From: a virus
Taxonomy: Duplodnaviria > Heunggongvirae > Uroviricota > Caudoviricetes
Reading direction: 5' to 3' (one strand)
DNA length: 39,985 nucleotides
IMG/VR virus record: IMGVR_UViG_2925939204_000007
Location: 1-39,985 of that record
Within the stretch, counting starts at the first letter, position 1; every line of letters begins with the position of its first letter. Below are positions 1-33,416 of this stretch, piece after piece. The translations under genes and the position numbers were made by a program. The notes under the pieces were generated by a model. That model ran no database searches. It was not told the DNA's origin and saw nothing but the letters and a program-made list of their open reading frames with translations.

Positions 1-549
1 TCAGCTAGCTGGAAACTTTTTATACAGAGTTGAGAGCCCTACTCCATACGTTTTTGATACGCTTTGTCGTGATTCACCGGTTGCCATCCGCTCCCCCATT
101 TCCCGCCATTGCTCATCCGTGAACTTAGGCCTGCGACCACCAACTCGCCCTTTTGCCCTGGCTACGGCCAGCCCTGCTAAGGTACGTTCGCTATTAAGAT
201 CAGATTCATATTGTGCTGCGGAAAGGATGTTACGAAAGTTATAGCGGCCGCTGGCTGTTTTGAGATCCACGCCATCGGTAATACTGCGGAAGTTGATACC
301 CTTTTCCTGTAACTGCTGGAACATCAACAGCGCATGCAGAACGTTGCGGCCTATCCTGTCCAGCTTCCAGACCACCAGTTCATCCCCCGGCTGCATAGTG
401 GCGATCAGCCGTTTTAGAACCGGCCGATTCGATTTCCTCCCGCTGGCATGCTCTTCAAAAATTTTCTCACAACCCGCTGACTTGAGCGCCGTTAGTTGCA
501 ATTCAGTGTCCTGGTGGTTTGTTGATACTCGGGCATAACCGTAAATCAT
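1..549 (-). CDS. DNA invertase, serine recombinase of the Hin/Gin/Pin family
   Basis: ATG at 549 (the listed ORF start at 594 is an upstream extension); N-terminal MIYGYARVSTNHQ resolvase catalytic motif; C-terminal HTH (GESRQSVSKTYGVGLSTLYKKF); about 182 aa; stop TGA at 1-3; adjacent to an invertible tail-fibre segment. Confidence 0.9.
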   Translation of the reverse strand: MIYGYARVSTNHQDTELQLTALKSAGCEKIFEEHASGRKSNRPVLKRLIATMQPGDELVVWKLDRIGRNVLHALLMFQQLQEKGINFRSITDGVDLKTASGRYNFRNILSAAQYESDLNSERTLAGLAVARAKGRVGGRRPKFTDEQWREMGERMATGESRQSVSKTYGVGLSTLYKKFPAS

Positions 550-554
550 GGGAT

Positions 555-580
555 TTCTCCTGTTATGAAAACAGGAGAAA
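555..580 (-). promoter_or_regulatory. Perfect 10-bp inverted repeat (tttctcctgt / acaggagaaa) that includes the invertase Shine-Dalgarno; candidate RBS-sequestering hairpin
   Basis: Read directly: 555-564 tttctcctgt, loop tatgaa, 571-580 acaggagaaa; the AGGAGAAA SD for the ATG at 549 forms one arm; no T-run, so not a terminator. Confidence 0.4.
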
Positions 581-601
581 CGGCGAAGCATCACCAGATT
601 T

Positions 602-1090
602 TTGATGGTTATAAAAAAGGTTGGTTTGGGAGAAACGATAAATAAAGCCTCCGGAGCTATGCAGAAATCGGCTAATGGAGCTGATATTTCTGATGTATCA
701 GCCTTCCGAAATGCGCTCCAGTTAGGGACCGCCGCAACACGAGATGTTGGAGCAGATAATGCCTCGAAGTTACTGGATTTAGACAGCTTCAGGTCAATGA
801 TGTCAGGGAATGGCTACATCTACATTCCATGCATTGCGACGACAGGAAACCCGGTGAAACTTATGTTGCAGTGGGGAACGGTGGCAACACAAAAGGGAGC
901 TGATGCTGGATATGCCTTACCATTTGCTTTTCCCTATGCAGGCTTATTTGCGACCGGAAACCGTGGAACATCTGGCTACAATGCCGCGATGAATGTGCGT
1001 ATTGCCAGCAGAACGCATATCAGTATTCAGAACTGGTCGCCATCCGGAGAGGGCACCGAAGATTGTTGTTTTATCGCGCTGGGGTATTAA
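602..1090 (+). CDS. Alternative (silent-orientation) tail-fibre C-terminal variable segment
   Basis: Ends ...FIALGY like the expressed fibre (...FEAIGY); contains NALQLGTAATRDVGADN similar to ENLQLGEAAKRDVGTGN of the expressed fibre; begins at the inversion site so would fuse in frame to the fibre N-terminus after inversion; probably not independently expressed. Confidence 0.6.
   Translation: MMVIKKVGLGETINKASGAMQKSANGADISDVSAFRNALQLGTAATRDVGADNASKLLDLDSFRSMMSGNGYIYIPCIATTGNPVKLMLQWGTVATQKGADAGYALPFAFPYAGLFATGNRGTSGYNAAMNVRIASRTHISIQNWSPSGEGTEDCCFIALGY
609..634. repeat. Left recombination site of invertible segment (hix/gix-like 26 bp: TTATAAAAAAGG-TT-GGTTTGGGAGAA)
   Basis: Imperfect palindrome with 12-bp half-sites around a 2-bp core; reverse complement of the right half (TTCTCCCAAACC) matches the left half of the partner site at 2143-2168 over TTCTCCCAA; sits at the 5' end of the silent fibre segment. 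Confidence 0.6.
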
Positions 1091-1092
1091 GA

Positions 1093-1503
1093 ATGAATAA
1101 ATTTTATAAAGGCTCTTTCTATCCGAAAGCACTAAAAGAGGTATATATCAGCGCCGATTCATGGCCTGAAAATGGCGTTGATGTTGATGATGAAACAATG
1201 GCAATTTACACAGGCGTAGCGCCACAAGGCAAAACGCTGGGGGCTGATAAAAATGGTAATCCTGCGTGGATTGATATCCCGCCACTCTCCGCTGAACAAC
1301 AGATTATTCAGGCTGAACAGAAAAGAACGGTATTGCGTTCTATGGCTGATAAGGAAATAGCCTGGAGACAGGATGCTTTTGATGCGGAAATCGCGACGGC
1401 AGAAGAAACCGCCGCGTTATCTGAATGGAAAAAATACCGGGTCTTGCTGATGCGCGTTGATACAGCAAAACCCGTATGGCCTGTCAATCCGCAGGATATT
1501 TAA
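1093..1503 (+). CDS. Tail fibre assembly protein (Tfa), alternative orientation
   Basis: 136 aa; C-terminal EWKKYRVLLMRVDTAKPVWPVNP is the conserved Tfa C-terminal signature; follows the alternative fibre segment. Confidence 0.65.
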   Translation: MNKFYKGSFYPKALKEVYISADSWPENGVDVDDETMAIYTGVAPQGKTLGADKNGNPAWIDIPPLSAEQQIIQAEQKRTVLRSMADKEIAWRQDAFDAEIATAEETAALSEWKKYRVLLMRVDTAKPVWPVNPQDI

Positions 1504-1717
1504 CGGGGGCGTTGTAGGTGGTGACATATTCAAGCAGTTCTGTTGGATATGTCACCGTTGCTGCATCTCGCTCTACGTTAAATGTATCCGCTCCCCAGAT
1601 AACACACTCCCTCAAAAATGCCTCCACCTCTGGCGAGACTTCAACCGCATCATCAGGTCGCTCTTGTTCAGAAACATAAAAACCAACGGTCGTTGGGCTG
1701 AAATAGATATTCTCCAT
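1484..1717 (-). CDS. Small protein after the expressed tail-fibre gene (possible short tail-fibre chaperone)
   Basis: 77 aa, ATG at 1717 three nt after the fibre stop; AGGA upstream; lacks the conserved Tfa C-terminus, so function is uncertain; 3' end overlaps the convergent Tfa gene by 20 nt. Confidence 0.4.
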   Translation of the reverse strand: MENIYFSPTTVGFYVSEQERPDDAVEVSPEVEAFLRECVIWGADTFNVERDAATVTYPTELLEYVTTYNAPVKYPAD

Positions 1718-1719
1718 AT

Positions 1720-2493
1720 TTAGTATCCTATTGCTTCAAAATGCAGTGTCGGTGTTTCGCCGAGATTGGGTGTCGTATACGCCACAGTGAATCGCGTTCT
1801 TGATACGTCAGTGCCAGAATCAGTATCGCGATGCGTTGCCAGTGATTTTCCGGCCATTGTTGCCTGGGTCGAATAGCTGTAACTCGCTAGTGTTGCCAGC
1901 GTTGCTATTTGTGCATTTGGGAATTGTCTGGGGAAATTAACCCTGTAGTAATGGGTGTAGTACGTCACCCCACCAAGCACCTGCGCGTTGAAGCTACCAA
2001 CTGGTGTCAGTGTCACAGTGCCAGCCTGTCGAATCATACCATTTGGGAGAATATCCCAGGCAGTTTGTCCGTTTCGCGACATACCAAATGCGGACATGTC
2101 CGGGAGTTGATTATTACCGGTTCCGACATCCCGTTTTGCCGCTTCTCCCAATTGAAGGTTTTCGAGAGCCGTTTTCACCGTGCCATCCGATTTGATATCG
2201 CCAAACGGATTCTTGCGGCTCAGATATTCAACAGCAAACCCCGATCCCAGCAATTCAACAAAACCGGGCAGATCACCATTATCAAGCACATCCCGTTGCG
2301 TTTTATCACTTACAAACTGGGCCAGAGCTGCAGCAATAAAGCTGGCCTGCCGAATAACCTTATTGACTTGCGCACTGGATGCTTTCCCTGCTGTAAATCC
2401 GGATATAAGCGCGGGCAACGCTTCCCATTCCTCCTGCGATATAACATTGGCATTTCGATCCGTTGCAAACGCTTTAAAGTCATTTTTCGCCAT
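1720..2493 (-). CDS. Tail fibre protein (expressed orientation; constant N-terminus + invertible C-terminus)
   Basis: ATG at 2493 overlaps the upstream stop (ATGA); inversion site lies at the codons for ENLQLGE; glycine-rich variable C-terminus ending FEAIGY. Confidence 0.7.
   Translation of the reverse strand: MAKNDFKAFATDRNANVISQEEWEALPALISGFTAGKASSAQVNKVIRQASFIAAALAQFVSDKTQRDVLDNGDLPGFVELLGSGFAVEYLSRKNPFGDIKSDGTVKTALENLQLGEAAKRDVGTGNNQLPDMSAFGMSRNGQTAWDILPNGMIRQAGTVTLTPVGSFNAQVLGGVTYYTHYYRVNFPRQFPNAQIATLATLASYSYSTQATMAGKSLATHRDTDSGTDVSRTRFTVAYTTPNLGETPTLHFEAIGY
2143..2168. repeat. Right recombination site of invertible segment (TTCTCCCAATTG-AA-GGTTTTCGAGAG on + strand), inside the tail-fibre gene
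   Basis: Inverted relative to the 609-634 site; both sites sit in the same codon phase of their ORFs, so inversion gives an in-frame fusion. Confidence 0.6.
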
Positions 2494-3173
2494 CAGAGTA
2501 ATACTCCCCATGCTCCTACATCAAAACCACTGATGTATTCGTTATCAATATCAAACCCAAAGAATTTTGAGCCTTCGGACGGTGTTTCTACCGAAGGCGT
2601 TTCAACACCACCGGCCCATACACCAGCAGCTTTAACGGTGAGATAACCCTGTTTGATAGCGGCTATCAGTTCGAGTGACACATCAGAAATATCAGTCTCG
2701 GGAAAAACCCAGACCGATATCGTCATGTCCTGGTTATCGACGATCTGCATCTTCAGTCCAGAGCCTGCGGTAGCAGCGTCAAGGATGGGAGGCAGAGAGT
2801 CGTTCCGACCATCCCAGTTGTTGATAGCGATTTTCGCTTTCAGAATGATGCGGTACGTCTCATCACTCAGCGTCGTATAACCCGAATCCGGGTCATACGG
2901 CCCCTGCCAGACGCCCTGGTCATATCCGAGCCCGTCAGTGTCCCAGCTAAAATACACCCCGCTTATCGGCTGGCTGACGATGCGGCTTCGCCCAATCCAC
3001 AGGCCGAGGGTATCGAGTTGCACGCCAACCGCCGTATCGATATCGAAGGCTGTTACAAGCCCTGACATAGTGCTGGACACATCAATCAGCGGGCGGGTGC
3101 TCAGATCTATATGGTCAAAAAAGAGTGGCTTGGTAGCATGGTAGTTAGTGATCAGTTCGGTGTATTTGCTCAT
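2493..3173 (-). CDS. Baseplate/tail protein (Mu gp48-like position)
   Basis: 227 aa; ATG at 3173 overlaps the upstream stop (ATGA); sits between the J-like baseplate gene and the tail fibre. Confidence 0.5.
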   Translation of the reverse strand: MSKYTELITNYHATKPLFFDHIDLSTRPLIDVSSTMSGLVTAFDIDTAVGVQLDTLGLWIGRSRIVSQPISGVYFSWDTDGLGYDQGVWQGPYDPDSGYTTLSDETYRIILKAKIAINNWDGRNDSLPPILDAATAGSGLKMQIVDNQDMTISVWVFPETDISDVSLELIAAIKQGYLTVKAAGVWAGGVETPSVETPSEGSKFFGFDIDNEYISGFDVGAWGVLL

Positions 3174-4723: not shown

Positions 4724-4726
4724 AAA

Positions 4727-4825
4727 TCACCACCAGCGTATAGCGCTAATAACGCTTGACAGACCGAATAAAAAGAACACGGCCCAGATGAGGAAGAATT
4801 TCCAGTTGGGTAGTTTTTCGCCCAT
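4727..4825 (-). CDS. Small hydrophobic peptide (32 aa, single predicted TM helix)
   Basis: Not in the ORF track (under 60 aa); ATG at 4825 with GGGAG 9 nt upstream; MGEKLPNWKFFLIWAVFFLFGLSSVISAIRWW; stop 4 nt before the next gene start. Confidence 0.3.
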   Translation of the reverse strand: MGEKLPNWKFFLIWAVFFLFGLSSVISAIRWW

Positions 4826-4896
4826 GACTCGCAACTCCCGTATCAGTTTGCTAAAATTAATCACATATTCTCCCTTGCTATCCTCAAGGTGCAGAA

Positions 4897-4943
4897 AGTA
4901 AAAAGCCCCGAAGTGTTAGCGCACCCGGGGCTTTTGTCTGTTT
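4897..4943. terminator. Bidirectional Rho-independent terminator-like hairpin between the spike gene and downstream baseplate genes
   Basis: GCCCCG ... CGGGGC stem (4905-4910 / 4926-4931) preceded by an A-run and followed by a T-run on the + strand. Confidence 0.5.
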
Positions 4944-4951
4944 GGTAGTTT

Positions 4952-5692
4952 TTAATTAGGCGCGGTAGTATTCCCGCTGCCATTCTGCACACCGCCATGG
5001 GTATGCTGGATGAGGCTCTTACCTCCAGCCTTCACATCGTTAGTCACCGTCACCGGCCCAAGCATCGTCGCAGTACCGCCACTTTCGCCCATTCCCTGAG
5101 ACAGATTGCCATTAATCGTTACGTTGCCGTTCAGCGTGATAGTCGGGGATGTGATTGTCGTTCCACCTTCAGCCGTAGCCGTGAGCTGGCCCGGTGTTTG
5201 AACGGTGATGTTATGTCCTGCGGCAACCTCTACGAACGCCGCACCATCATCGGTTCGCAGCTGCGCGGCGCTGGTACTGATACCGCTGATTTTCTGTGCT
5301 TGCGACTGCGGGCCAACGATGGCGAACGCATCAGATAAGTCATGCTGTCGCGGATCGACGGTCTCCTGAACGCCGCCGCTCTGCCACCAGAAATCGATGC
5401 AACGGTCGGCAAAGATCAGTAGGCACTCGTCGCCTTCTTTTACCGGAAAGGTCAGCGTGCAACCGCCGCCGCGCGGGAAGATAACCGGCACATCCACCAG
5501 CGGTTTTAATTCGGTGGAGCCATCGCCAACAATACCGCGAAGCGCTACCTCTACTGTGCAGGTAACAGTGTCAGGATCGAACGACTGAATGATGCCGGGC
5601 ATCGCTACGCGCATCTGGGTAGACACCGAATCGACAATGGCCTGCGCGGTCTGCTGCTCACCGCCGATCTGTGATTGAGTTGGAATTGGCAT
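4952..5692 (-). CDS. Baseplate central spike (gpV / Mu gp45-like)
   Basis: 246 aa; Gly/Thr-rich C-terminal region typical of spike beta-helix; GGAG RBS 7 nt upstream of the ATG at 5692. Confidence 0.7.
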   Translation of the reverse strand: MPIPTQSQIGGEQQTAQAIVDSVSTQMRVAMPGIIQSFDPDTVTCTVEVALRGIVGDGSTELKPLVDVPVIFPRGGGCTLTFPVKEGDECLLIFADRCIDFWWQSGGVQETVDPRQHDLSDAFAIVGPQSQAQKISGISTSAAQLRTDDGAAFVEVAAGHNITVQTPGQLTATAEGGTTITSPTITLNGNVTINGNLSQGMGESGGTATMLGPVTVTNDVKAGGKSLIQHTHGGVQNGSGNTTAPN

Positions 5693-5703
5693 AAAAACTC
5701 CAT

Positions 5704-5725
5704 AAAAAACCCACCGGATGGTGGG
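5704..5725 (-). terminator. Rho-independent terminator after the lipoprotein gene
   Basis: Stem CCCACC/GGTGGG (5710-5715 / 5720-5725), loop GGAT, followed on the - strand by a U6 run (A-run 5704-5709 on +). Confidence 0.5.
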
Positions 5726-5756
5726 TCTATAAAACAGAATATGAAACTGATACGGT

Positions 5757-6881
5757 TCAGTTCATACCAGCTCCTTTATAATTCTTACACGGTACAGCTA
5801 CAGTCACCATTTCTACGTATCCGTCATTGCCTTGTTTTTTACACATTGCGTTATGCATTACTGCAAGCCTAGCGGCATGATCAAAATCGATATAATTATT
5901 ACCAAATGAAGCCTCGCCGAGAGCTGCAACTTTCGTCATGTCTGGTGTGTTGGGGTCTTTTACCATTTTAGCAAAATTGCTTAGACCCCTACCAACCTGA
6001 TCAAAGCACTGAGCTTCTATATCGTAGCCTGAGTATGCTGAGATACGCTGACATTCAGATAGGTGTTCTTTTACTGATAAATTTATTCGATATAAAGTCA
6101 GGTAAGATTTCCCAACGTGTATATAAACTTTCATGGGGTTATTGGTATTGGGTGACCTTGTTACAAATGAAAGCTTACTATACGCATCCCTAAGAGACCG
6201 TGCTTTTTTACTGGAAAAAACATCACCAAGCCCTACAACTGGCACCTCTGGGTTTGCTTTATCCTGCGCGATGGCTTTTTCTTTTTCAATCTGACTTGAC
6301 TTAGATATAATTTGCGCTCTCATAGAGCTTATTTTGATTACGACTTCATTCCTTATTTTATATAAATCACTAACTGACTGTTTAAAGTCTTGCTCGCTAA
6401 TGCTGTTGAGGCCAAAATACTCACGTTCTTTTAAAAAGTCGCTATACACTTTAGAAACATGGTTAGGATCTGATAACGCACTAGATCCAAAGATAATTGA
6501 GTAGTTATTCAAAATATCAGCAACGGTTGAGTATCTAACAGATTTATCTTCTATTTTATAAGTCGATGGTGGATGCCCTACATAATCATGAATTGACAGA
6601 TAAAGCGCAGTTATACCAATTGGACTAGTATTGGCCTTTTCAACCACATCTTGAAATGTACAACCTTTAGGGCATAGTGATTCACCACCCTCATTCGCAG
6701 TTAATTTATCGTCCTCTAGAACGTAATTAATGGCCTGCACCCCAGCTTTAGAATGTATAATTTCAGTTTTCTGCTTTTGATACTCATTATTTAGTTGAGT
6801 TCTCTGAGCTAAACCACACCCTGAAATAAAGCTACAAACCATCCATATAAAAAAATATTTCTTAAATGTCATGTATTTCAT
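5757..6881 (-). CDS. Lipoprotein of unknown function (moron inside the baseplate operon)
   Basis: 374 aa; N-terminal signal peptide with lipobox (MKYMTFKKYFFIWMVCSFISGC); ATG overlaps the hub-gene stop (ATGA); markedly AT-rich (17 G/C in 60 nt at 6301-6360); followed by its own terminator. Confidence 0.75.
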   Translation of the reverse strand: MKYMTFKKYFFIWMVCSFISGCGLAQRTQLNNEYQKQKTEIIHSKAGVQAINYVLEDDKLTANEGGESLCPKGCTFQDVVEKANTSPIGITALYLSIHDYVGHPPSTYKIEDKSVRYSTVADILNNYSIIFGSSALSDPNHVSKVYSDFLKEREYFGLNSISEQDFKQSVSDLYKIRNEVVIKISSMRAQIISKSSQIEKEKAIAQDKANPEVPVVGLGDVFSSKKARSLRDAYSKLSFVTRSPNTNNPMKVYIHVGKSYLTLYRINLSVKEHLSECQRISAYSGYDIEAQCFDQVGRGLSNFAKMVKDPNTPDMTKVAALGEASFGNNYIDFDHAARLAVMHNAMCKKQGNDGYVEMVTVAVPCKNYKGAGMN

Positions 6882-7969
6882 CCGGTCCGATTAATAGTCG
6901 AGATACTTTGTAAATCTCGCGCCCCACGAGCAAAGCACATCAAATCCATGTACCACGCCTGACCTCTGGTGTCGCCAGTATAGTCGATAGCTTTGACGAT
7001 ATAAAAGCCATCCGTCGCAATGCTGGCTGGTTGACTGACAGTGCCGTTAACGACGAGATTACCATTCATGTCGCTCTCTTGCAGCTTTGGTGAGGGTATG
7101 ATATTTCCATTCTCGTCGTATTTGACCGCACGAAGATCTTCATTGTTTAACTGCGTTCGGTACACCGAAGCCTGATCGAGCTGGATAAGACCATTAATGC
7201 GGATGTTCGGGTTTATCAGGCACCGCACGTTTACGCCGCCGCCCATTGTCTGTTGCGGCATACCGATCAGGCCAGTATCGGCATTCAGCACGATGGCTTC
7301 GTGAATATATTTATCCTCCGGCACCATCTGGACCTGACCATCAACCAGTTGCCATGTCGCTTTGCACTGCGCAGCAATATTATCCATCACGTTACGGGTG
7401 GATGAGTAAATCGCACGGCCACGAGGAAACACGGTATCAGGAAAATCGCCGGTAATGCCCTGTGTCACGCCGAACGCGTTGAAATCCTGCATCGTCGCCC
7501 GGTGCAGGTCCGCAACGGTATAACCAGCGGCAAGCGTGGTGATGGTAGTCGCGTAGAGGAACGCTTCGTGGTTACTGATGGCCTGAATCAGCACCCAGGA
7601 ATCGGTGATGTTGTCCTTCCCGGTGACGGTGAAGCGAATATCACCGTCAAATATCAGGCCGTAGTTCTGACCGTTCACCTGCCCTACCTGGTCTGGTGAA
7701 ATCTCCCGGGCGACACCAACCTGGCTCGCATCAACATCCGGCGCAATACCGTCATACCCGGCAATGATGCGAATTTTTGCAAACTCCTGCCCCAGTATCT
7801 TGTTCGTGGTATCGGTCGAAAGGTTGTAAATTTTCACGTTCGCCACGCGTGGCCAGCGTGTGTCTGCCCACTCGATCTGGAACGTGACCTTAAAGTCAGA
7901 CAGGGAAACGCCCTGCCCGTTCTGGTCCAACAGTTGCAGCTCAAAATGGCGCATCCAGTTAAGAGACAT
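6878..7969 (-). CDS. Baseplate hub protein (Mu gp44 / P2 gpD-like)
   Basis: 363 aa; position between the tape-measure-proximal genes and the spike. Confidence 0.65.
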   Translation of the reverse strand: MSLNWMRHFELQLLDQNGQGVSLSDFKVTFQIEWADTRWPRVANVKIYNLSTDTTNKILGQEFAKIRIIAGYDGIAPDVDASQVGVAREISPDQVGQVNGQNYGLIFDGDIRFTVTGKDNITDSWVLIQAISNHEAFLYATTITTLAAGYTVADLHRATMQDFNAFGVTQGITGDFPDTVFPRGRAIYSSTRNVMDNIAAQCKATWQLVDGQVQMVPEDKYIHEAIVLNADTGLIGMPQQTMGGGVNVRCLINPNIRINGLIQLDQASVYRTQLNNEDLRAVKYDENGNIIPSPKLQESDMNGNLVVNGTVSQPASIATDGFYIVKAIDYTGDTRGQAWYMDLMCFARGARDLQSISTINRTG

Positions 7970-26115: not shown

Positions 26116-26898
26116 TTACCGCGTTATCTGCTTAAGCTGTTTTTCGGCCCAGGACTCTTCGATATCAAATTTCGTGATCAGCAGGTCGTAGAATGGCTTA
26201 ACAGACTTTTTCCAGGTGTCCAGGCTAATGGCGTCAGTAATCTGGCATACAGCAGCATAGGCTTCAGTCGACGGAAGTCGTTCATACCCACGCCCTCCGC
26301 AGCGCTTACAGTCAGCCAGAACAGGAACGCCCTGTTTCTCAGTAAGAGCCTGGTTCACTGCCTTGCCGCGCCCATGGCAATCACTGCAAGAAGCACTAAC
26401 CACACCAGAGCCATTACACTTTTTGCATAGCACTTTGATGGATTCTTTGACCTTCACCATCCCGGACACGGTCATTTTCCCTTCTGGCTTACGGAATTTA
26501 TTGGTAAACACGTCAGCCTCAATGAAGCCCTGACCGTCACAACAATCGCACTGCTTCACGCTGGCAGCGCTGCGGGAATAGTCCTCAAAAGCGAAGGTGG
26601 CCAACTGGTGCATCACCTGAGGTTTAACCGCGGCACCGAGCTTACGCAGTGCGGCAACCTTGTCGCATTTTGTCATCGCGTACTCAGCCAGCAGACCGAT
26701 CGCCCGATCCCGGTCGTTATTGCTTATGCCCATCTTGCCGAGGAAGGCGCTGTAACCCATTGCGGCGCGTTCCTGCGTCATGCCCATGGCAGCCATTATG
26801 TCGGTACCGGTCAGTGAATCGGAGGCGGTAGCGCGCGGAGAATCGCTAATCAGTGTGGATTTAGCGAAGTGGTATTTCACTGTGTTTTCAAGGTTCAT
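26116..26898 (-). CDS. Late-gene antitermination protein Q-like
   Basis: 260 aa; multiple CxxC zinc-finger-like pairs; position downstream of rusA and upstream of the lysis cassette. Confidence 0.75.
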   Translation of the reverse strand: MNLENTVKYHFAKSTLISDSPRATASDSLTGTDIMAAMGMTQERAAMGYSAFLGKMGISNNDRDRAIGLLAEYAMTKCDKVAALRKLGAAVKPQVMHQLATFAFEDYSRSAASVKQCDCCDGQGFIEADVFTNKFRKPEGKMTVSGMVKVKESIKVLCKKCNGSGVVSASCSDCHGRGKAVNQALTEKQGVPVLADCKRCGGRGYERLPSTEAYAAVCQITDAISLDTWKKSVKPFYDLLITKFDIEESWAEKQLKQITR

Positions 26899-32079: not shown

Positions 32080-32469
32080 ATGAGAAAAGAAGAACCCAAC
32101 CTCGTTCTGGTGGAGCGCCTTACTGAGATCACTGATCGCGGCGTTACCAAAGCAGACATGGCAAGAATAGCTGGAGTCACCCCTCAGGCCGTAAACGGCT
32201 GGTTCAAAAAAGGCGTGATTAGTAAGAAATCGGCACTGGCCATAGCCGACGCTGTTGGTATTTCTGTCGCCTGGCTACTCGGTGAAGACGTTGGGGAGAA
32301 AGACGGTCTCAAACCGGACGAACAGCGTTTGCTCGAGCTCTACCGCCAGTTACCGGAAGAAGAGCAGCAGAACATGCTCCGCATTTTTGCGCTTCGCCTG
32401 AAAGAGTTAGATGAGCTGTACGAGAAGTACATGAAGGGTCGGATTCGATCGCAAGGTGAGCAAACCTAA
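32080..32469 (+). CDS. Prophage repressor, short XRE-family HTH protein without peptidase domain
   Basis: 129 aa; HTH (VTKADMARIAGVTPQAVNGWFKKG); no S24 autoprotease C-terminal domain; divergent from the cro-like gene. Confidence 0.75.
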   Translation: MRKEEPNLVLVERLTEITDRGVTKADMARIAGVTPQAVNGWFKKGVISKKSALAIADAVGISVAWLLGEDVGEKDGLKPDEQRLLELYRQLPEEEQQNMLRIFALRLKELDELYEKYMKGRIRSQGEQT

Positions 32470-32533
32470 ACCAGTAGTATCTAATTCCATGTAATAAAAA
32501 TATTTCAAGATTTAATATCTTCTGGAGGATTCG

Positions 32534-32815
32534 GTGTCTAAAGAAACAACCGTCGAACTTATGCATCTTAATGATGTAATCGAAGCGAAAAATTTCATCG
32601 AGACCAATGCTGACGGTGTCGTAACAATCGGCACACAAAATGCCGGTTACGAAGTTTACAATTTTGTGTTCCTGAATAGCAGCCCGATCATCGGTACGGA
32701 TAATGCGGATATAGTCGTCAAGGGCATGCAGCGAACCAAAGTTGTGTCTGTGACTTTAAGCAAACAAAAGGCTTATGATTTTTATCAATCCTTAAAAAGT
32801 ATGTTTGAGGAATAA
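32534..32815 (+). CDS. Hypothetical protein, first gene of AT-rich cassette downstream of the repressor
   Basis: 93 aa; GTG start with GGAGG RBS 5 nt upstream; no terminator between the repressor stop and this gene; 14 G/C in 60 nt at 32761-32820. Confidence 0.6.
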   Translation: MSKETTVELMHLNDVIEAKNFIETNADGVVTIGTQNAGYEVYNFVFLNSSPIIGTDNADIVVKGMQRTKVVSVTLSKQKAYDFYQSLKSMFEE

Positions 32816-32821
32816 TAATTG

Positions 32822-33343
32822 ATGGATGCGGCTCAATCATCTCTTGGTGAAGGGAAGTTATTGATTGCATATTCAGACCATAGCGGAGCTACAGTAGGCT
32901 TAGAGTTTTCATCAGTAGCTTCGAGCCAAGCAACCTTCCTTATGGGTGCTTGTAGTTTTGCCGCTTCGGATAAACAAAAACGGATTGTCACATCAGTTGC
33001 TATGGATGATACTGAAATCATTCATACGTCAACTGAAGATGGAGGTGACGACATGGAAAAGAGATTGGCTATTCTTGAGGTTGAAGTTGCCCACATCAAG
33101 AAAGATGTTGCCGAGATAAAAAACACAGTTTCAAAAGTTGATACGACAGTGAATTCACTGGACAAAAATATGGCTGTAGTTTTGGAGAGGCTGTCTAGTA
33201 TCAAAGAGTCTGTAGACAAAAAGCCCTCATCAGACACAGTGGACAAGAAAATCTCTGATGCTAAATTGGCGATTCTCTTAGGTGTCCCTGCGATTATCGC
33301 CATTGGTACAGGGCTGTACAAAGCTTTTATGCACTTCTTTTAG
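32822..33343 (+). CDS. Coiled-coil protein with C-terminal transmembrane anchor (XhlA-like architecture), second gene of cassette
   Basis: 173 aa; start 6 nt after the gene-1 stop; coiled-coil region (EKRLAILEVEVAHIKKDVAEIKNTVSKVDTTVNSLDKNMAVVLERLSSIKESV) then hydrophobic tail LAILLGVPAIIAIGTGLYKAFMHFF; followed by a strong terminator. Confidence 0.65.
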   Translation: MDAAQSSLGEGKLLIAYSDHSGATVGLEFSSVASSQATFLMGACSFAASDKQKRIVTSVAMDDTEIIHTSTEDGGDDMEKRLAILEVEVAHIKKDVAEIKNTVSKVDTTVNSLDKNMAVVLERLSSIKESVDKKPSSDTVDKKISDAKLAILLGVPAIIAIGTGLYKAFMHFF

Positions 33344-33416
33344 TCAGATTTGGTCAATACGCCTGAGTTATAAGGCTCTCAGCTACTAACTCTGTCGCCT
33401 TCCCCGAACCTTCTCA

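What the first reader, a model, noticed from the sequence alone, without database searches (positions are those of the whole stretch)
5693..6881. Foreign lipoprotein gene translationally coupled into the baseplate operon, with its own terminator
Between the baseplate hub gene and the spike gene sits a 374-aa ORF with a textbook lipoprotein signal peptide (lipobox ISGC) and an AT content unlike the flanking tail genes (17 G/C in 60 nt at 6301-6360). Its ATG overlaps the hub stop (ATGA), so it is translated with the tail operon, yet it is followed by a hairpin plus U-run terminator (5704-5725) before the spike gene, which has its own GGAG RBS. This is the signature of a moron. Phage-encoded lipoproteins in tail regions (T5 Llp, phi80/N15 Cor) block the phage's own receptor to exclude superinfection; this protein is much larger and has no motif I recognise, so it may be a new envelope-acting exclusion or defence factor, or a virion-associated enzyme.
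Basis: partly seen in the sequence, partly recalled or inferred. Interest (0 to 1): 0.7.

Follow-up and report, generated by a model that had tools for sequence, protein, structure and literature searches.

The report
Prophage outer-membrane lipoprotein in hub–spike slot
An E. coli prophage carries, between two tail-tip genes, an AT-rich add-on gene for a previously undescribed outer-membrane lipoprotein; it is a rare version of a swap-in slot that always encodes an exported protein and probably helps block infection by other phages, though this is untested.

Summary
Window 5757-6881 (- strand) encodes a 374-aa protein with a canonical lipobox (ISG|C22). It has the lowest GC of any tile in the window (0.37 vs 0.53). 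It abuts the hub stop codon (ATGA) and is followed by a hairpin plus T-run just before the spike RBS.

The gene is an accessory cassette (about 5710-6910). Bordetella and Ralstonia relatives have hub and spike overlapping directly. In 72 of 72 close enterobacterial relatives the slot is filled and ends with a terminator, so the terminator belongs to the slot, not to this gene.

The first gene after the hub encodes an exported protein in 71 of those 72. In 66 it is a small "class B" protein (phrog_3443) and in 5 a short "class A" lipoprotein.

The window protein is a rare long class A form. It joins a helical N-domain, shared with long class B lipoproteins (hhalign 98%), to a conserved four-cysteine C-domain.

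The family is tiny: 40 clusters among 1.84 billion representatives. It has no Pfam, PHROG, PADLOC, NCBIfam or PDB match, and it evolves under purifying selection (dN/dS 0.17). Members lie next to the hub gene or in satellite-like elements.

Most likely it is a periplasm-facing envelope exclusion factor. That function is inferred, not shown.

The parts
5757..6881 (-). CDS of the 374-aa lipoprotein (long class A). The alternative, annotated start at 6872 gives 371 aa (WP_080028393.1, 'hypothetical protein').
   Evidence: dN/dS is 0.17 against the Salmonella houtenae orthologue.
6816..6881 (-). Signal peptide and lipobox (residues 1-22; ISG|C22; +2 Gly).
   Evidence: A lipobox was found in 46 of 57 family members by regex, and most of the rest are fragments or near-misses. 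None has Asp at +2.
6336..6815 (-). Helical N-terminal domain (about residues 23-182; Cys70/Cys74; motif ...ALYLSIHDY...). It is shared with long class B lipoproteins.
   Evidence: AF2 pLDDT mostly above 85. hhalign A2 vs A4: probability 98.3%, E 1.8e-14, over residues 1-182 only.
5760..6269 (-). Conserved C-terminal class A domain (about residues 205-374). Invariant Cys277, Cys292, Cys347 and Cys365; motif F-x-H-A-A-R-L-x-x-M-H. A long helix (residues 177-209) links it to the N-domain.
6878..6881 (-). ATGA overlap of the hub stop codon and the first lipoprotein ATG.
   Evidence: Equally tight junctions (overlap to 7 nt) occur in relatives.
5704..5728 (-). Intrinsic-terminator-like hairpin plus T6, immediately upstream of the spike RBS.
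   Evidence: The position is conserved in 72 of 72 relatives and in SEN34-like phages with other cargo. It is absent from cargo-less relatives.
5698..5701 (-). GGAG ribosome-binding site of the spike gene (ATG at 5692).
5710..6910 (-). Variable cassette. Homology with close relatives carrying other cargo breaks at about 6885-6915 (last codons of hub) and resumes at about 5709-5732 (terminator).
6878..7969 (-). Baseplate hub gene (context).
   Evidence: phrog_196 E 1e-83; PF22759 weak
4952..5692 (-). Membrane-puncturing spike gene, gpV-like with Apex motif (context).
6977..7005 (-). Promoter-like TTTATA-N17-TATACT inside the hub 3' end, about 95 nt upstream of the lipoprotein start. Status unknown.
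   Evidence: It lies in conserved hub codons (VYIVK..DYTGD), so its conservation is uninformative.
26116..26898 (-). Q-type antitermination protein gene of the prophage. It would let late transcription read through the slot terminator (context, inferred).
   Evidence: RefSeq annotation

Best explanation
What it is (well supported): an accessory cassette in a variable slot between the hub and spike genes of a lambdoid-regulated temperate myovirus with an E217/SEN34-type tail, integrated in E. coli AR_0119.

The cassette encodes a member of a small, undescribed family of outer-membrane lipoproteins. The protein has four parts: a signal peptide with lipobox, a helical N-domain, a long linker helix, and a conserved four-cysteine C-domain.

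What it does (inferred):
- After Sec export, lipidation and Lol sorting, it sits on the periplasmic face of the outer membrane.
- There its C-domain blocks infection at the envelope. This is superinfection exclusion for the lysogen and protection of progeny from wasteful injection into sister cells or debris.
- I favour interference with the step after fibre binding, meaning tail-tip penetration or DNA delivery through the periplasm, over masking of the fibre's receptor.
- The N-domain would be an optional anchoring or docking module, because short forms lack it and it is also fused to an unrelated C-domain.

Expression (inferred): the gene is co-translated with the hub during late, Q-antiterminated transcription. 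It may also be made in the lysogen from terminator-sensitive transcription that the slot terminator stops before the spike gene.
For: Identity as an accessory cassette:
- Cargo-less relatives exist.
- Cassette boundaries are defined against 8 relatives.
- GC is 0.34-0.40 in every host, against 0.42-0.56 for the hub.
- Only 2 of the 42 complete E. coli genomes with this hub have this gene.

Exported lipoprotein:
- Lipobox in the window protein and in nearly all of 56 relatives, none with Asp at +2.
- Four invariant Cys.

Real, selected gene: dN/dS is 0.17, the same as the hub at 0.16.

The slot is dedicated to envelope proteins:
- In 71 of 72 relatives the first gene after the hub encodes a Sec- or lipoprotein-type exported protein of class A or B.
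- Further cargo includes membrane proteins and Phd/Doc-like pairs.

Domain shuffling: the N-domain is shared between long class A and long class B forms.

Accessory or defence-type contexts elsewhere: distant members lie in satellite-like elements, beside an integrase, a TumE toxin-antitoxin pair and a DUF927 primase.

Linkage to the tail tip rather than the fibre:
- 100%-identical lipoproteins travel with hubs and spikes that are 92-100% identical.
- The same lipoproteins travel with fibre tips that are unrelated or only 33-54% identical.
- One distant member sits at plug|hub instead of hub|spike.

The terminator is present only where cargo is present. This argues for transcription that needs stopping.

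Established precedents (own knowledge, plus papers listed and the reference list seen): T5 Llp, Cor, HK97 gp15, T4 Spackle and TP-J34 Ltp.
Against: - No experiment and no homology links the protein to exclusion.
- PADLOC, PHROGs, Pfam and NCBIfam gave nothing.
- Fold searches found only generic helical matches.
- No promoter could be shown, so expression in the lysogen is unproven.
- Linkage to hub and spike may simply reflect a permissive insertion point.
- Carriers L010 and L011 have tape-measure proteins without an SLT domain, so the specific idea of inhibiting the incoming phage's transglycosylase is not supported.
- An exported protein in 71 of 72 enterobacterial relatives could equally mean a lytic-cycle role.
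Confidence: 0.4

Rival explanations
1. Llp/Cor-type receptor plug. The lipoprotein binds the periplasmic face of an outer-membrane protein that the phage uses as receptor and locks it in a form that cannot bind phage.
For: It has the same cellular address and the same tail-module location as T5 Llp and phi80/N15 Cor (own knowledge; papers listed). It is an outer-membrane lipoprotein with disulfides.
Against: Identical lipoproteins accompany different fibre tips. These phages have invertible gp53-like fibres, typical of LPS binders, and a relative binds LPS (PMC10269795, title); LPS cannot be masked from the periplasm. The protein is 4-6 times larger than Llp or Cor and shows no sequence or fold similarity to anything in Pfam, PHROGs or the PDB.
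Confidence: 0.15
2. Host-benefit moron with no role in phage exclusion. It would act like lambda Bor or TraT, as an envelope lipoprotein that improves lysogen fitness through serum or complement resistance, envelope stress tolerance, or immunity to peptidoglycan-targeting toxins.
Confidence: 0.15
3. Late-cycle helper for the phage. It would be made only with the tail genes and act on the envelope at the end of infection, for example in lysis timing, outer-membrane weakening or release.
For: Tight coupling to the hub stop with no room for a promoter. Q antiterminator in the prophage. An exported protein follows the hub in nearly all enterobacterial relatives.
Against: The prophage already has holins, an endolysin and an Rz1-type LysC. 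Bordetella and Ralstonia relatives do without any slot gene. Two unrelated C-domains alternate at the site. Family members in satellite-like elements are not linked to tail genes.
Confidence: 0.1
4. Structural baseplate or virion component, or an assembly factor.
For: Its position inside the baseplate gene block and its coupling to the hub.
Against: The lipoprotein export signal removes it from the cytoplasm, where tails assemble. It is replaced by unrelated proteins in phages whose hubs are 97-98% identical and is absent from distant relatives. Its composition is atypical.
Confidence: 0.03
5. Decaying passenger DNA without function.
For: A rare allele with no known domain.
Against: The ORF is intact in many genera: the 90% cluster spans E. 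coli, Salmonella, Citrobacter, Klebsiella and Enterobacter. dN/dS is 0.17. There are 22 invariant residues across 32-93% identical homologues, and the AF2 models are confident.
Confidence: 0.03

Closest known systems
Phage T5 Llp (and BF23 Llp)
   Same: A phage-encoded outer-membrane lipoprotein facing the periplasm. Its gene sits in the tail/host-recognition region. It protects the infected cell and the progeny by blocking infection at the envelope.
   Different: Mature Llp is about 61 aa, is made early from its own promoter, binds FhuA and matches the phage's receptor-binding protein. The protein here is 352 aa mature, helical, two-domain, coupled to a late gene, independent of fibre type, and shows no sequence or fold similarity to any known family.
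Cor of phi80 / N15 / HK022 / T1
   Same: A prophage lipoprotein encoded at the edge of the tail genes that excludes superinfecting phages.
   Different: Cor is small and FhuA-specific. No similarity to any family in Pfam or PHROGs was detected.
T4 Spackle (Sp)
   Same: A periplasmic, helical, disulfide-containing phage protein that blocks the tail tip after adsorption, by inhibiting the gp5 lysozyme. This is the kind of mechanism I favour here.
   Different: Spackle is a soluble protein of about 10 kDa, not a lipoprotein. Only 1 of 22 family members touched PF25676, at E 0.031, which is noise. Two carriers lack an SLT domain in their tape-measure protein.
HK97 gp15 moron
   Same: An exclusion gene embedded in the tail operon, next to the gene of the virion protein involved in DNA entry.
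   Different: gp15 is an inner-membrane protein with its own transcription signals. It is unrelated in sequence.
Class B slot proteins (phrog_3443, function unknown)
   Same: They occupy the same position right after the hub, have the same low GC and are also exported. Their long forms carry the same lipoprotein N-domain (hhalign 98.3%).
   Different: The C-domain is unrelated (two Cys; motif QPGRWVG...NAQWLQ). They are far commoner: 66 of 72 relatives against 5 of 72 for class A.
Lambda Bor / Lom
   Same: Morons in or near late genes that encode outer-membrane proteins.
   Different: They are expressed from their own promoters in the lysogen and act on host-serum or host-cell interactions. 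They are unrelated in sequence.

Membership tests
Bacterial lipoprotein (signal peptidase II substrate) | N-terminal positive n-region, hydrophobic h-region, and a lipobox [LVI][ASTVI][GAS]C with the Cys within about 15-35 residues of the start. | tested here: met
   MKYMTFKKYFFIWMVCSFISG|C22. A lipobox was found in 46 of 57 relatives by regex.
Bacterial lipoprotein (signal peptidase II substrate) | Actual diacylglyceryl modification and globomycin-sensitive processing. | not testable with these tools
   Needs labelling or mass spectrometry.
Outer-membrane (Lol-sorted) lipoprotein of Enterobacterales | No Asp at position +2 after the lipidated Cys. | tested here: met
   +2 is Gly here. No family member has Asp at +2.
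Moron (Hendrix/Juhala sense) | Present in one phage but absent at the same junction in related phages. | tested here: met
   Hub and spike overlap directly in L100 and L101. Other cargo sits in close relatives.
Moron (Hendrix/Juhala sense) | Base composition unlike the flanking genes. | tested here: met
   GC 0.37 against 0.52-0.57, and the lowest tile in the window.
Moron (Hendrix/Juhala sense) | Own promoter. | tested here: inconclusive
   There is no intergenic space. Promoter-like sites are not enriched (6 found against 5.6 expected). The one candidate lies in conserved hub codons.
Moron (Hendrix/Juhala sense) | Own terminator. | tested here: met
   A terminator is present. It is a feature of the slot in 72 of 72 relatives, not of this gene.
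Moron (Hendrix/Juhala sense) | Expressed from the repressed prophage. | not testable with these tools
   No transcriptome was available. ST64B data (PMC7067206) do not apply, because ST64B has a Mu-type tail.
Llp / Cor superinfection-exclusion lipoproteins | Sequence or profile similarity to the family. | tested here: not met
   No family of any kind was hit in Pfam-A or PHROGs.
Llp / Cor superinfection-exclusion lipoproteins | Blocks an outer-membrane receptor of its own phage; specificity follows the receptor-binding protein. | tested here: not met
   100%-identical lipoproteins travel with different fibre tips. The binding itself cannot be tested here.
T4 Spackle (PF25676) | Profile match above the Pfam gathering score. 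| tested here: not met
   1 of 22 members at E 0.031. No Spackle chain appeared in the PDB sequence or fold searches.
Known anti-phage defence systems (PADLOC-DB) | Match to any of the 5027 models. | tested here: not met
   No hits at E up to 1.
Baseplate structural component of E217/SEN34-type tails | Conserved presence and matching composition across relatives. | tested here: not met

The most novel reading that the evidence does not exclude
The exported proteins encoded right after the hub gene (class A and class B, with or without the shared lipoprotein N-domain) could form a lineage-wide, allelically diversifying 'periplasmic immunity' system. An outer-membrane-tethered protein would recognise the incoming tail-tip complex (spike, hub or tape-measure) of phages with this baseplate and abort penetration, independently of the fibre's receptor. 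The alleles would be exchanged as cassettes between the last hub codons and a fixed terminator. That would be a new exclusion principle for contractile-tailed temperate phages of Enterobacterales, carried on a new protein fold and borrowed by satellite-like elements.
Probability: 0.2. Interest if true: 0.75.

Novelty: new variant of a known kind. Interest (0 to 1): 0.52.

Why it matters
Prophage-encoded envelope proteins decide which phages can infect a lysogen. That matters for phage therapy against Enterobacterales and for understanding competition between prophages.

This locus offers three things:
- An undescribed lipoprotein family with no known fold, present in clinical E. coli, Klebsiella, Citrobacter, Enterobacter, Salmonella and Serratia.
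- A precisely bounded cassette slot that carries an exported protein in 71 of 72 close relatives, which makes it a natural allele-swap system for experiments.
- A shared N-terminal lipoprotein module fused to two unrelated C-domains, which suggests a common docking site with interchangeable effectors.

If exclusion is confirmed, the slot could be mined for further envelope-acting anti-phage proteins. If not, the finding remains a well-described accessory gene of unknown function.

Tried and rejected
Searches that found nothing:
- Pfam-A, PHROGs, PADLOC and NCBIfam found no family for the protein or its relatives.
- A PDB sequence-profile search found nothing.
- tblastn against 50,697 deposited phage genomes gave no hit for the window protein or for P0017. 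Only a partial distant match to Hafnia phage yong1 gp67 appeared, using P0039 and P0044.
- Rfam and tRNA scans of the window were empty.

Structure searches:
- Foldseek against the PDB gave a best E of 0.44.
- BFVD gave one unnamed viral protein, H9C1A6, at E 9e-6, which I could not identify.
- afdb50 was not available.

Ideas considered and dropped:
- Inhibitor of the tape-measure protein's SLT transglycosylase, like Spackle. I weakened this because carriers L010 and L011 have no SLT domain and the single Spackle Pfam hit is noise.
- An embedded promoter at 7005-6977. Its conservation is explained by conserved hub codons, so it could not be judged.
- ST64B transcriptome data as a proxy for lysogenic expression. 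ST64B has a Mu-type tail and is not a relative.
- Mapping cassette boundaries against the Salmonella houtenae locus. This was uninformative because it is the same phage lineage, 92% identical throughout.
Full report
**1. The observation**

The - strand ORF 5757-6881 encodes 374 aa. It begins MKYMTFKKYFFIWMVCSFISG|CGLAQ. That gives two lysines, an 11-residue hydrophobic core, the lipobox I-S-G-C with Cys22, and Gly at +2.

The first ATG shares two bases with the stop codon of the upstream gene (GG-ATG-A, 6878-6881). RefSeq and all homologues start at the second ATG, 9 nt further on.

The upstream gene (6878-7969) is the baseplate hub (phrog_196 E 1e-83; weak PF22759). The downstream gene (4952-5692) is a gpV-type spike with the Apex motif.

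GC of the ORF is 0.372 (GC3 0.31), against 0.52/0.62 for hub and 0.57/0.61 for spike. It is the most AT-rich of 1555 tiles of that length in the window, and 6301-6360 holds exactly 17 G+C.

Between the stop codon and the spike start lies a hairpin (5728-5707) with a T6 run (5709-5704). The 71-nt stretch containing it folds at -20.2 kcal/mol, z -3.8. It is followed by GGAG and then the spike ATG.

**2. Where the window comes from**

The window is 100% identical to a prophage of E. coli AR_0119, between tonB/yciI and kch.

The prophage has lambdoid early genes: a CI-like repressor, O/P-like replication genes, RusA and a Q-type antiterminator at window 26116-26898. It has a lysis cassette with holins, a GH19 endolysin and an Rz1-like LysC. 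Its head and contractile tail are of the E217/SEN34 (Brunovirus-like) type, and it has an invertible tail-fibre module.

**3. It is an accessory cassette in a fixed slot**

Citrobacter phage Omnitron is about 90% identical in the flanks. It has 822 nt of different DNA, with two other ORFs, in place of window 5710-6910.

Against eight IMG/VR relatives, homology always breaks at 6885-6915, in the last codons of the hub. It resumes at 5709-5732, in the terminator.

Of 5,426 complete E. coli genomes, 42 carry this hub. Two have this gene and one has a short homologue.

In the more distant Bordetella phage vB_BaM-IFTN9 and Ralstonia phage PY059YO380, the hub and spike genes overlap directly, with no terminator. 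So the ancestral arrangement lacks the insert.

**4. The slot is never empty in the enterobacterial branch, and the terminator belongs to the slot**

I examined 72 IMG/VR relatives with both flanks (hub at least 79% identical). The hub-spike gap is 426-2476 nt.

The first gene after the hub falls into these groups:
- 57 encode a class B short protein of 112-126 aa; 56 of these have a Sec-type signal. The family is phrog_3443, function unknown.
- 9 encode a class B long protein of 296-299 aa. Six have a lipobox and three have the lipobox Cys changed to Gly.
- 5 encode a class A short lipoprotein of 240-242 aa.
- 1 was unclassified.

All 72 have a hairpin plus T-run just upstream of the spike start. 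The stems differ, while the T-run and spike RBS are backbone sequence.

Further cargo behind the first gene includes a DUF4236 membrane protein, Phd/Doc-like pairs, a secreted 128-aa protein and others, all of low GC. SEN34 itself has two hypothetical genes there.

**5. The protein family**

A search of 5.8 billion proteins found 21 relatives. A profile search of 1.84 billion representatives found 40 clusters.

The conserved core is the C-terminal domain of about 170 aa. Its features are invariant Cys277, Cys292, Cys347 and Cys365 and the motif F-x-H-A-A-R-L-x-x-M-H. A distant subgroup has S-H-W-A-G-M-A-R-V-Y instead.

Short members (225-246 aa) consist of signal peptide, helix and this domain. 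Long members (354-379 aa) add a helical N-domain.

Nearly all full-length members have a lipobox and none has Asp at +2.

The N-domain is homologous to the N-domain of the long class B lipoproteins: hhalign probability 98.3%, E 1.8e-14, over residues 1-182 only. The C-domains do not align. So a shared lipoprotein module is fused to either of two unrelated C-domains.

The AF2 models are confident: full length pLDDT 85, and C-domain pLDDT 86.6 with pTM 0.81. They are mainly helical.

They match nothing convincingly:
- Foldseek against the PDB: best E 0.44.
- BFVD: one unnamed viral protein at E 9e-6.
- Pfam, PHROGs, PADLOC, NCBIfam and PDB sequence searches: negative.
- No deposited phage genome encodes a close homologue.

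The gene is under purifying selection: dN/dS is 0.17 against the Salmonella houtenae orthologue, compared with 0.16 for the hub. Its 90% cluster spans E. coli, Salmonella, Citrobacter, Klebsiella and Enterobacter, always annotated 'hypothetical'.

**6. Genomic contexts of relatives**

Relatives found directly after the hub gene and before the spike:
- Serratia sp. PL17
- three Salmonella loci
- three S. marcescens loci
- a Budviciaceae genome
- Kluyvera
- E. coli M172-1
- S. houtenae
- a metagenomic contig (L103), where it follows the hub but no spike gene is present

Their GC is 0.34-0.40 whatever the phage backbone.

A distant member (P0044) sits one junction upstream, between plug and hub, in a phage whose hub and spike overlap.

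Two other distant members (P0039, P0040) lie in satellite-like integrative elements, next to an integrase, a TumE toxin-antitoxin pair or a Zn-ribbon/Toprim/DUF927 primase. One member is chromosomal.

Identical lipoproteins accompany hubs and spikes that are 92-100% identical, but fibre tips that are unrelated or only 33-54% identical.

**7. Mechanism**

Shown by sequence:
- an export and lipidation signal
- an outer-membrane sorting residue
- conserved cysteines
- tight coupling to a late gene
- a terminator after the cargo
- a Q antiterminator in the prophage

The slot's dedication to exported proteins, the allelic turnover, the AT-rich composition, the domain shuffling and the family's presence in satellite-like elements all point the same way. 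This is how genes involved in competition between phages behave, more than structural or housekeeping genes.

I therefore favour envelope-level exclusion, protecting both the lysogen and the progeny. Because the protein is independent of fibre type and is linked to the hub at two different junctions, I favour a block after adsorption over receptor masking.

The presence of a terminator only where cargo exists suggests that some terminator-sensitive transcription, not modified by Q, crosses the cargo. I could not show a promoter: the only candidate (7005-6977) lies in conserved hub codons.

The specific idea that the protein inhibits the tape-measure protein's SLT domain is weakened, because two carriers lack SLT. 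A single weak Spackle Pfam hit is noise.

One circumstantial note of little weight: lysogens of the cargo-less Bordetella relatives remain open to superinfection (PMC10269795).

**8. Comparison with known systems, and verdict**

In working principle, the closest systems are T5 Llp, Cor, T4 Spackle and HK97 gp15. The protein is a member of none of them: similarity was tested and not found, and the Llp-type link to the receptor-binding protein is not seen.

It meets the composition, absence-in-relatives and terminator criteria of a moron. The promoter criterion is unresolved.

I rate it a new variant of a known kind: a new lipoprotein family with a new slot architecture, in the established category of prophage accessory envelope proteins.

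The function remains untested.

Noticed in passing
window 4724-4951 (- strand): A second small cassette lies between the spike and the sheath-initiator gene. A hairpin plus T-run follows the spike stop, and then comes a 32-45-aa single-pass membrane ORF (MGEKLPNWKFFLIWAVFFLFGLSSVISAIRWW). The ORF matches phrog_6632 and is a homologue of SEN34_23. The cassette is absent in phage Omnitron and in some E. coli relatives.
   Followed up: partly
window about 32350-33400 (+ strand): This is the only other long low-GC stretch in the window (below 0.42). It lies just downstream of the CI-like repressor gene and holds two hypothetical ORFs (84 and 173 aa). The position is typical of cargo expressed in the lysogen.
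   Followed up: no
window 1-2511: An invertible host-range module. A recombinase gene (1-594, - strand) is flanked by gp53-like fibre and fibre-assembly genes in opposite orientations (602-1503 on + and 1720-2511 on -).
   Followed up: no
window 4963-5244 and 7063-7182: The C-terminal half of the spike and a segment of the hub are mosaic among otherwise 90-98% identical relatives. Identity drops to 38-70%, or the match is lost.
   Followed up: partly
IMG/VR loci L024, L025, L030 (about 5069-5959): Three of nine long class B lipoproteins have the lipobox cysteine replaced by glycine (LSGG instead of LSGC) in otherwise intact ORFs. They may have lost lipid anchoring.
   Followed up: no
L094 5069-5968; L034/L036/L041/L049/L050 5069-5959; P0047, P0055: Long class B proteins carry the same lipoprotein N-domain as the window protein but an unrelated C-domain (phrog_3443). 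This shows domain shuffling within the slot.
   Followed up: yes
L104 3848-6071; L108/L109 1371-6125: Distant family members (C-terminal motif SHWAGMARVY) are cargo of satellite-like integrative elements. They sit beside a TumE/HVO_A0114 toxin-antitoxin pair, or directly after a Zn-ribbon/Toprim/DUF927 primase.
   Followed up: partly
L105 5001-7023: In one distant phage the lipoprotein gene sits between the plug and hub genes, while hub and spike overlap. This is an independent placement next to the hub.
   Followed up: partly
L007 9322-9915; L099 4639-5205: Additional slot cargo in Serratia and Klebsiella relatives includes a protein of about 190 aa with an HEAGHW motif, which may be a metallopeptidase.
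   Followed up: no
L097 4122-4532 (Hafnia phage yong1 gp67): The only deposited phage with any match to the family. As annotated it is a 136-aa distant class A C-domain without a signal peptide, so it may be truncated or mis-started.
   Followed up: no
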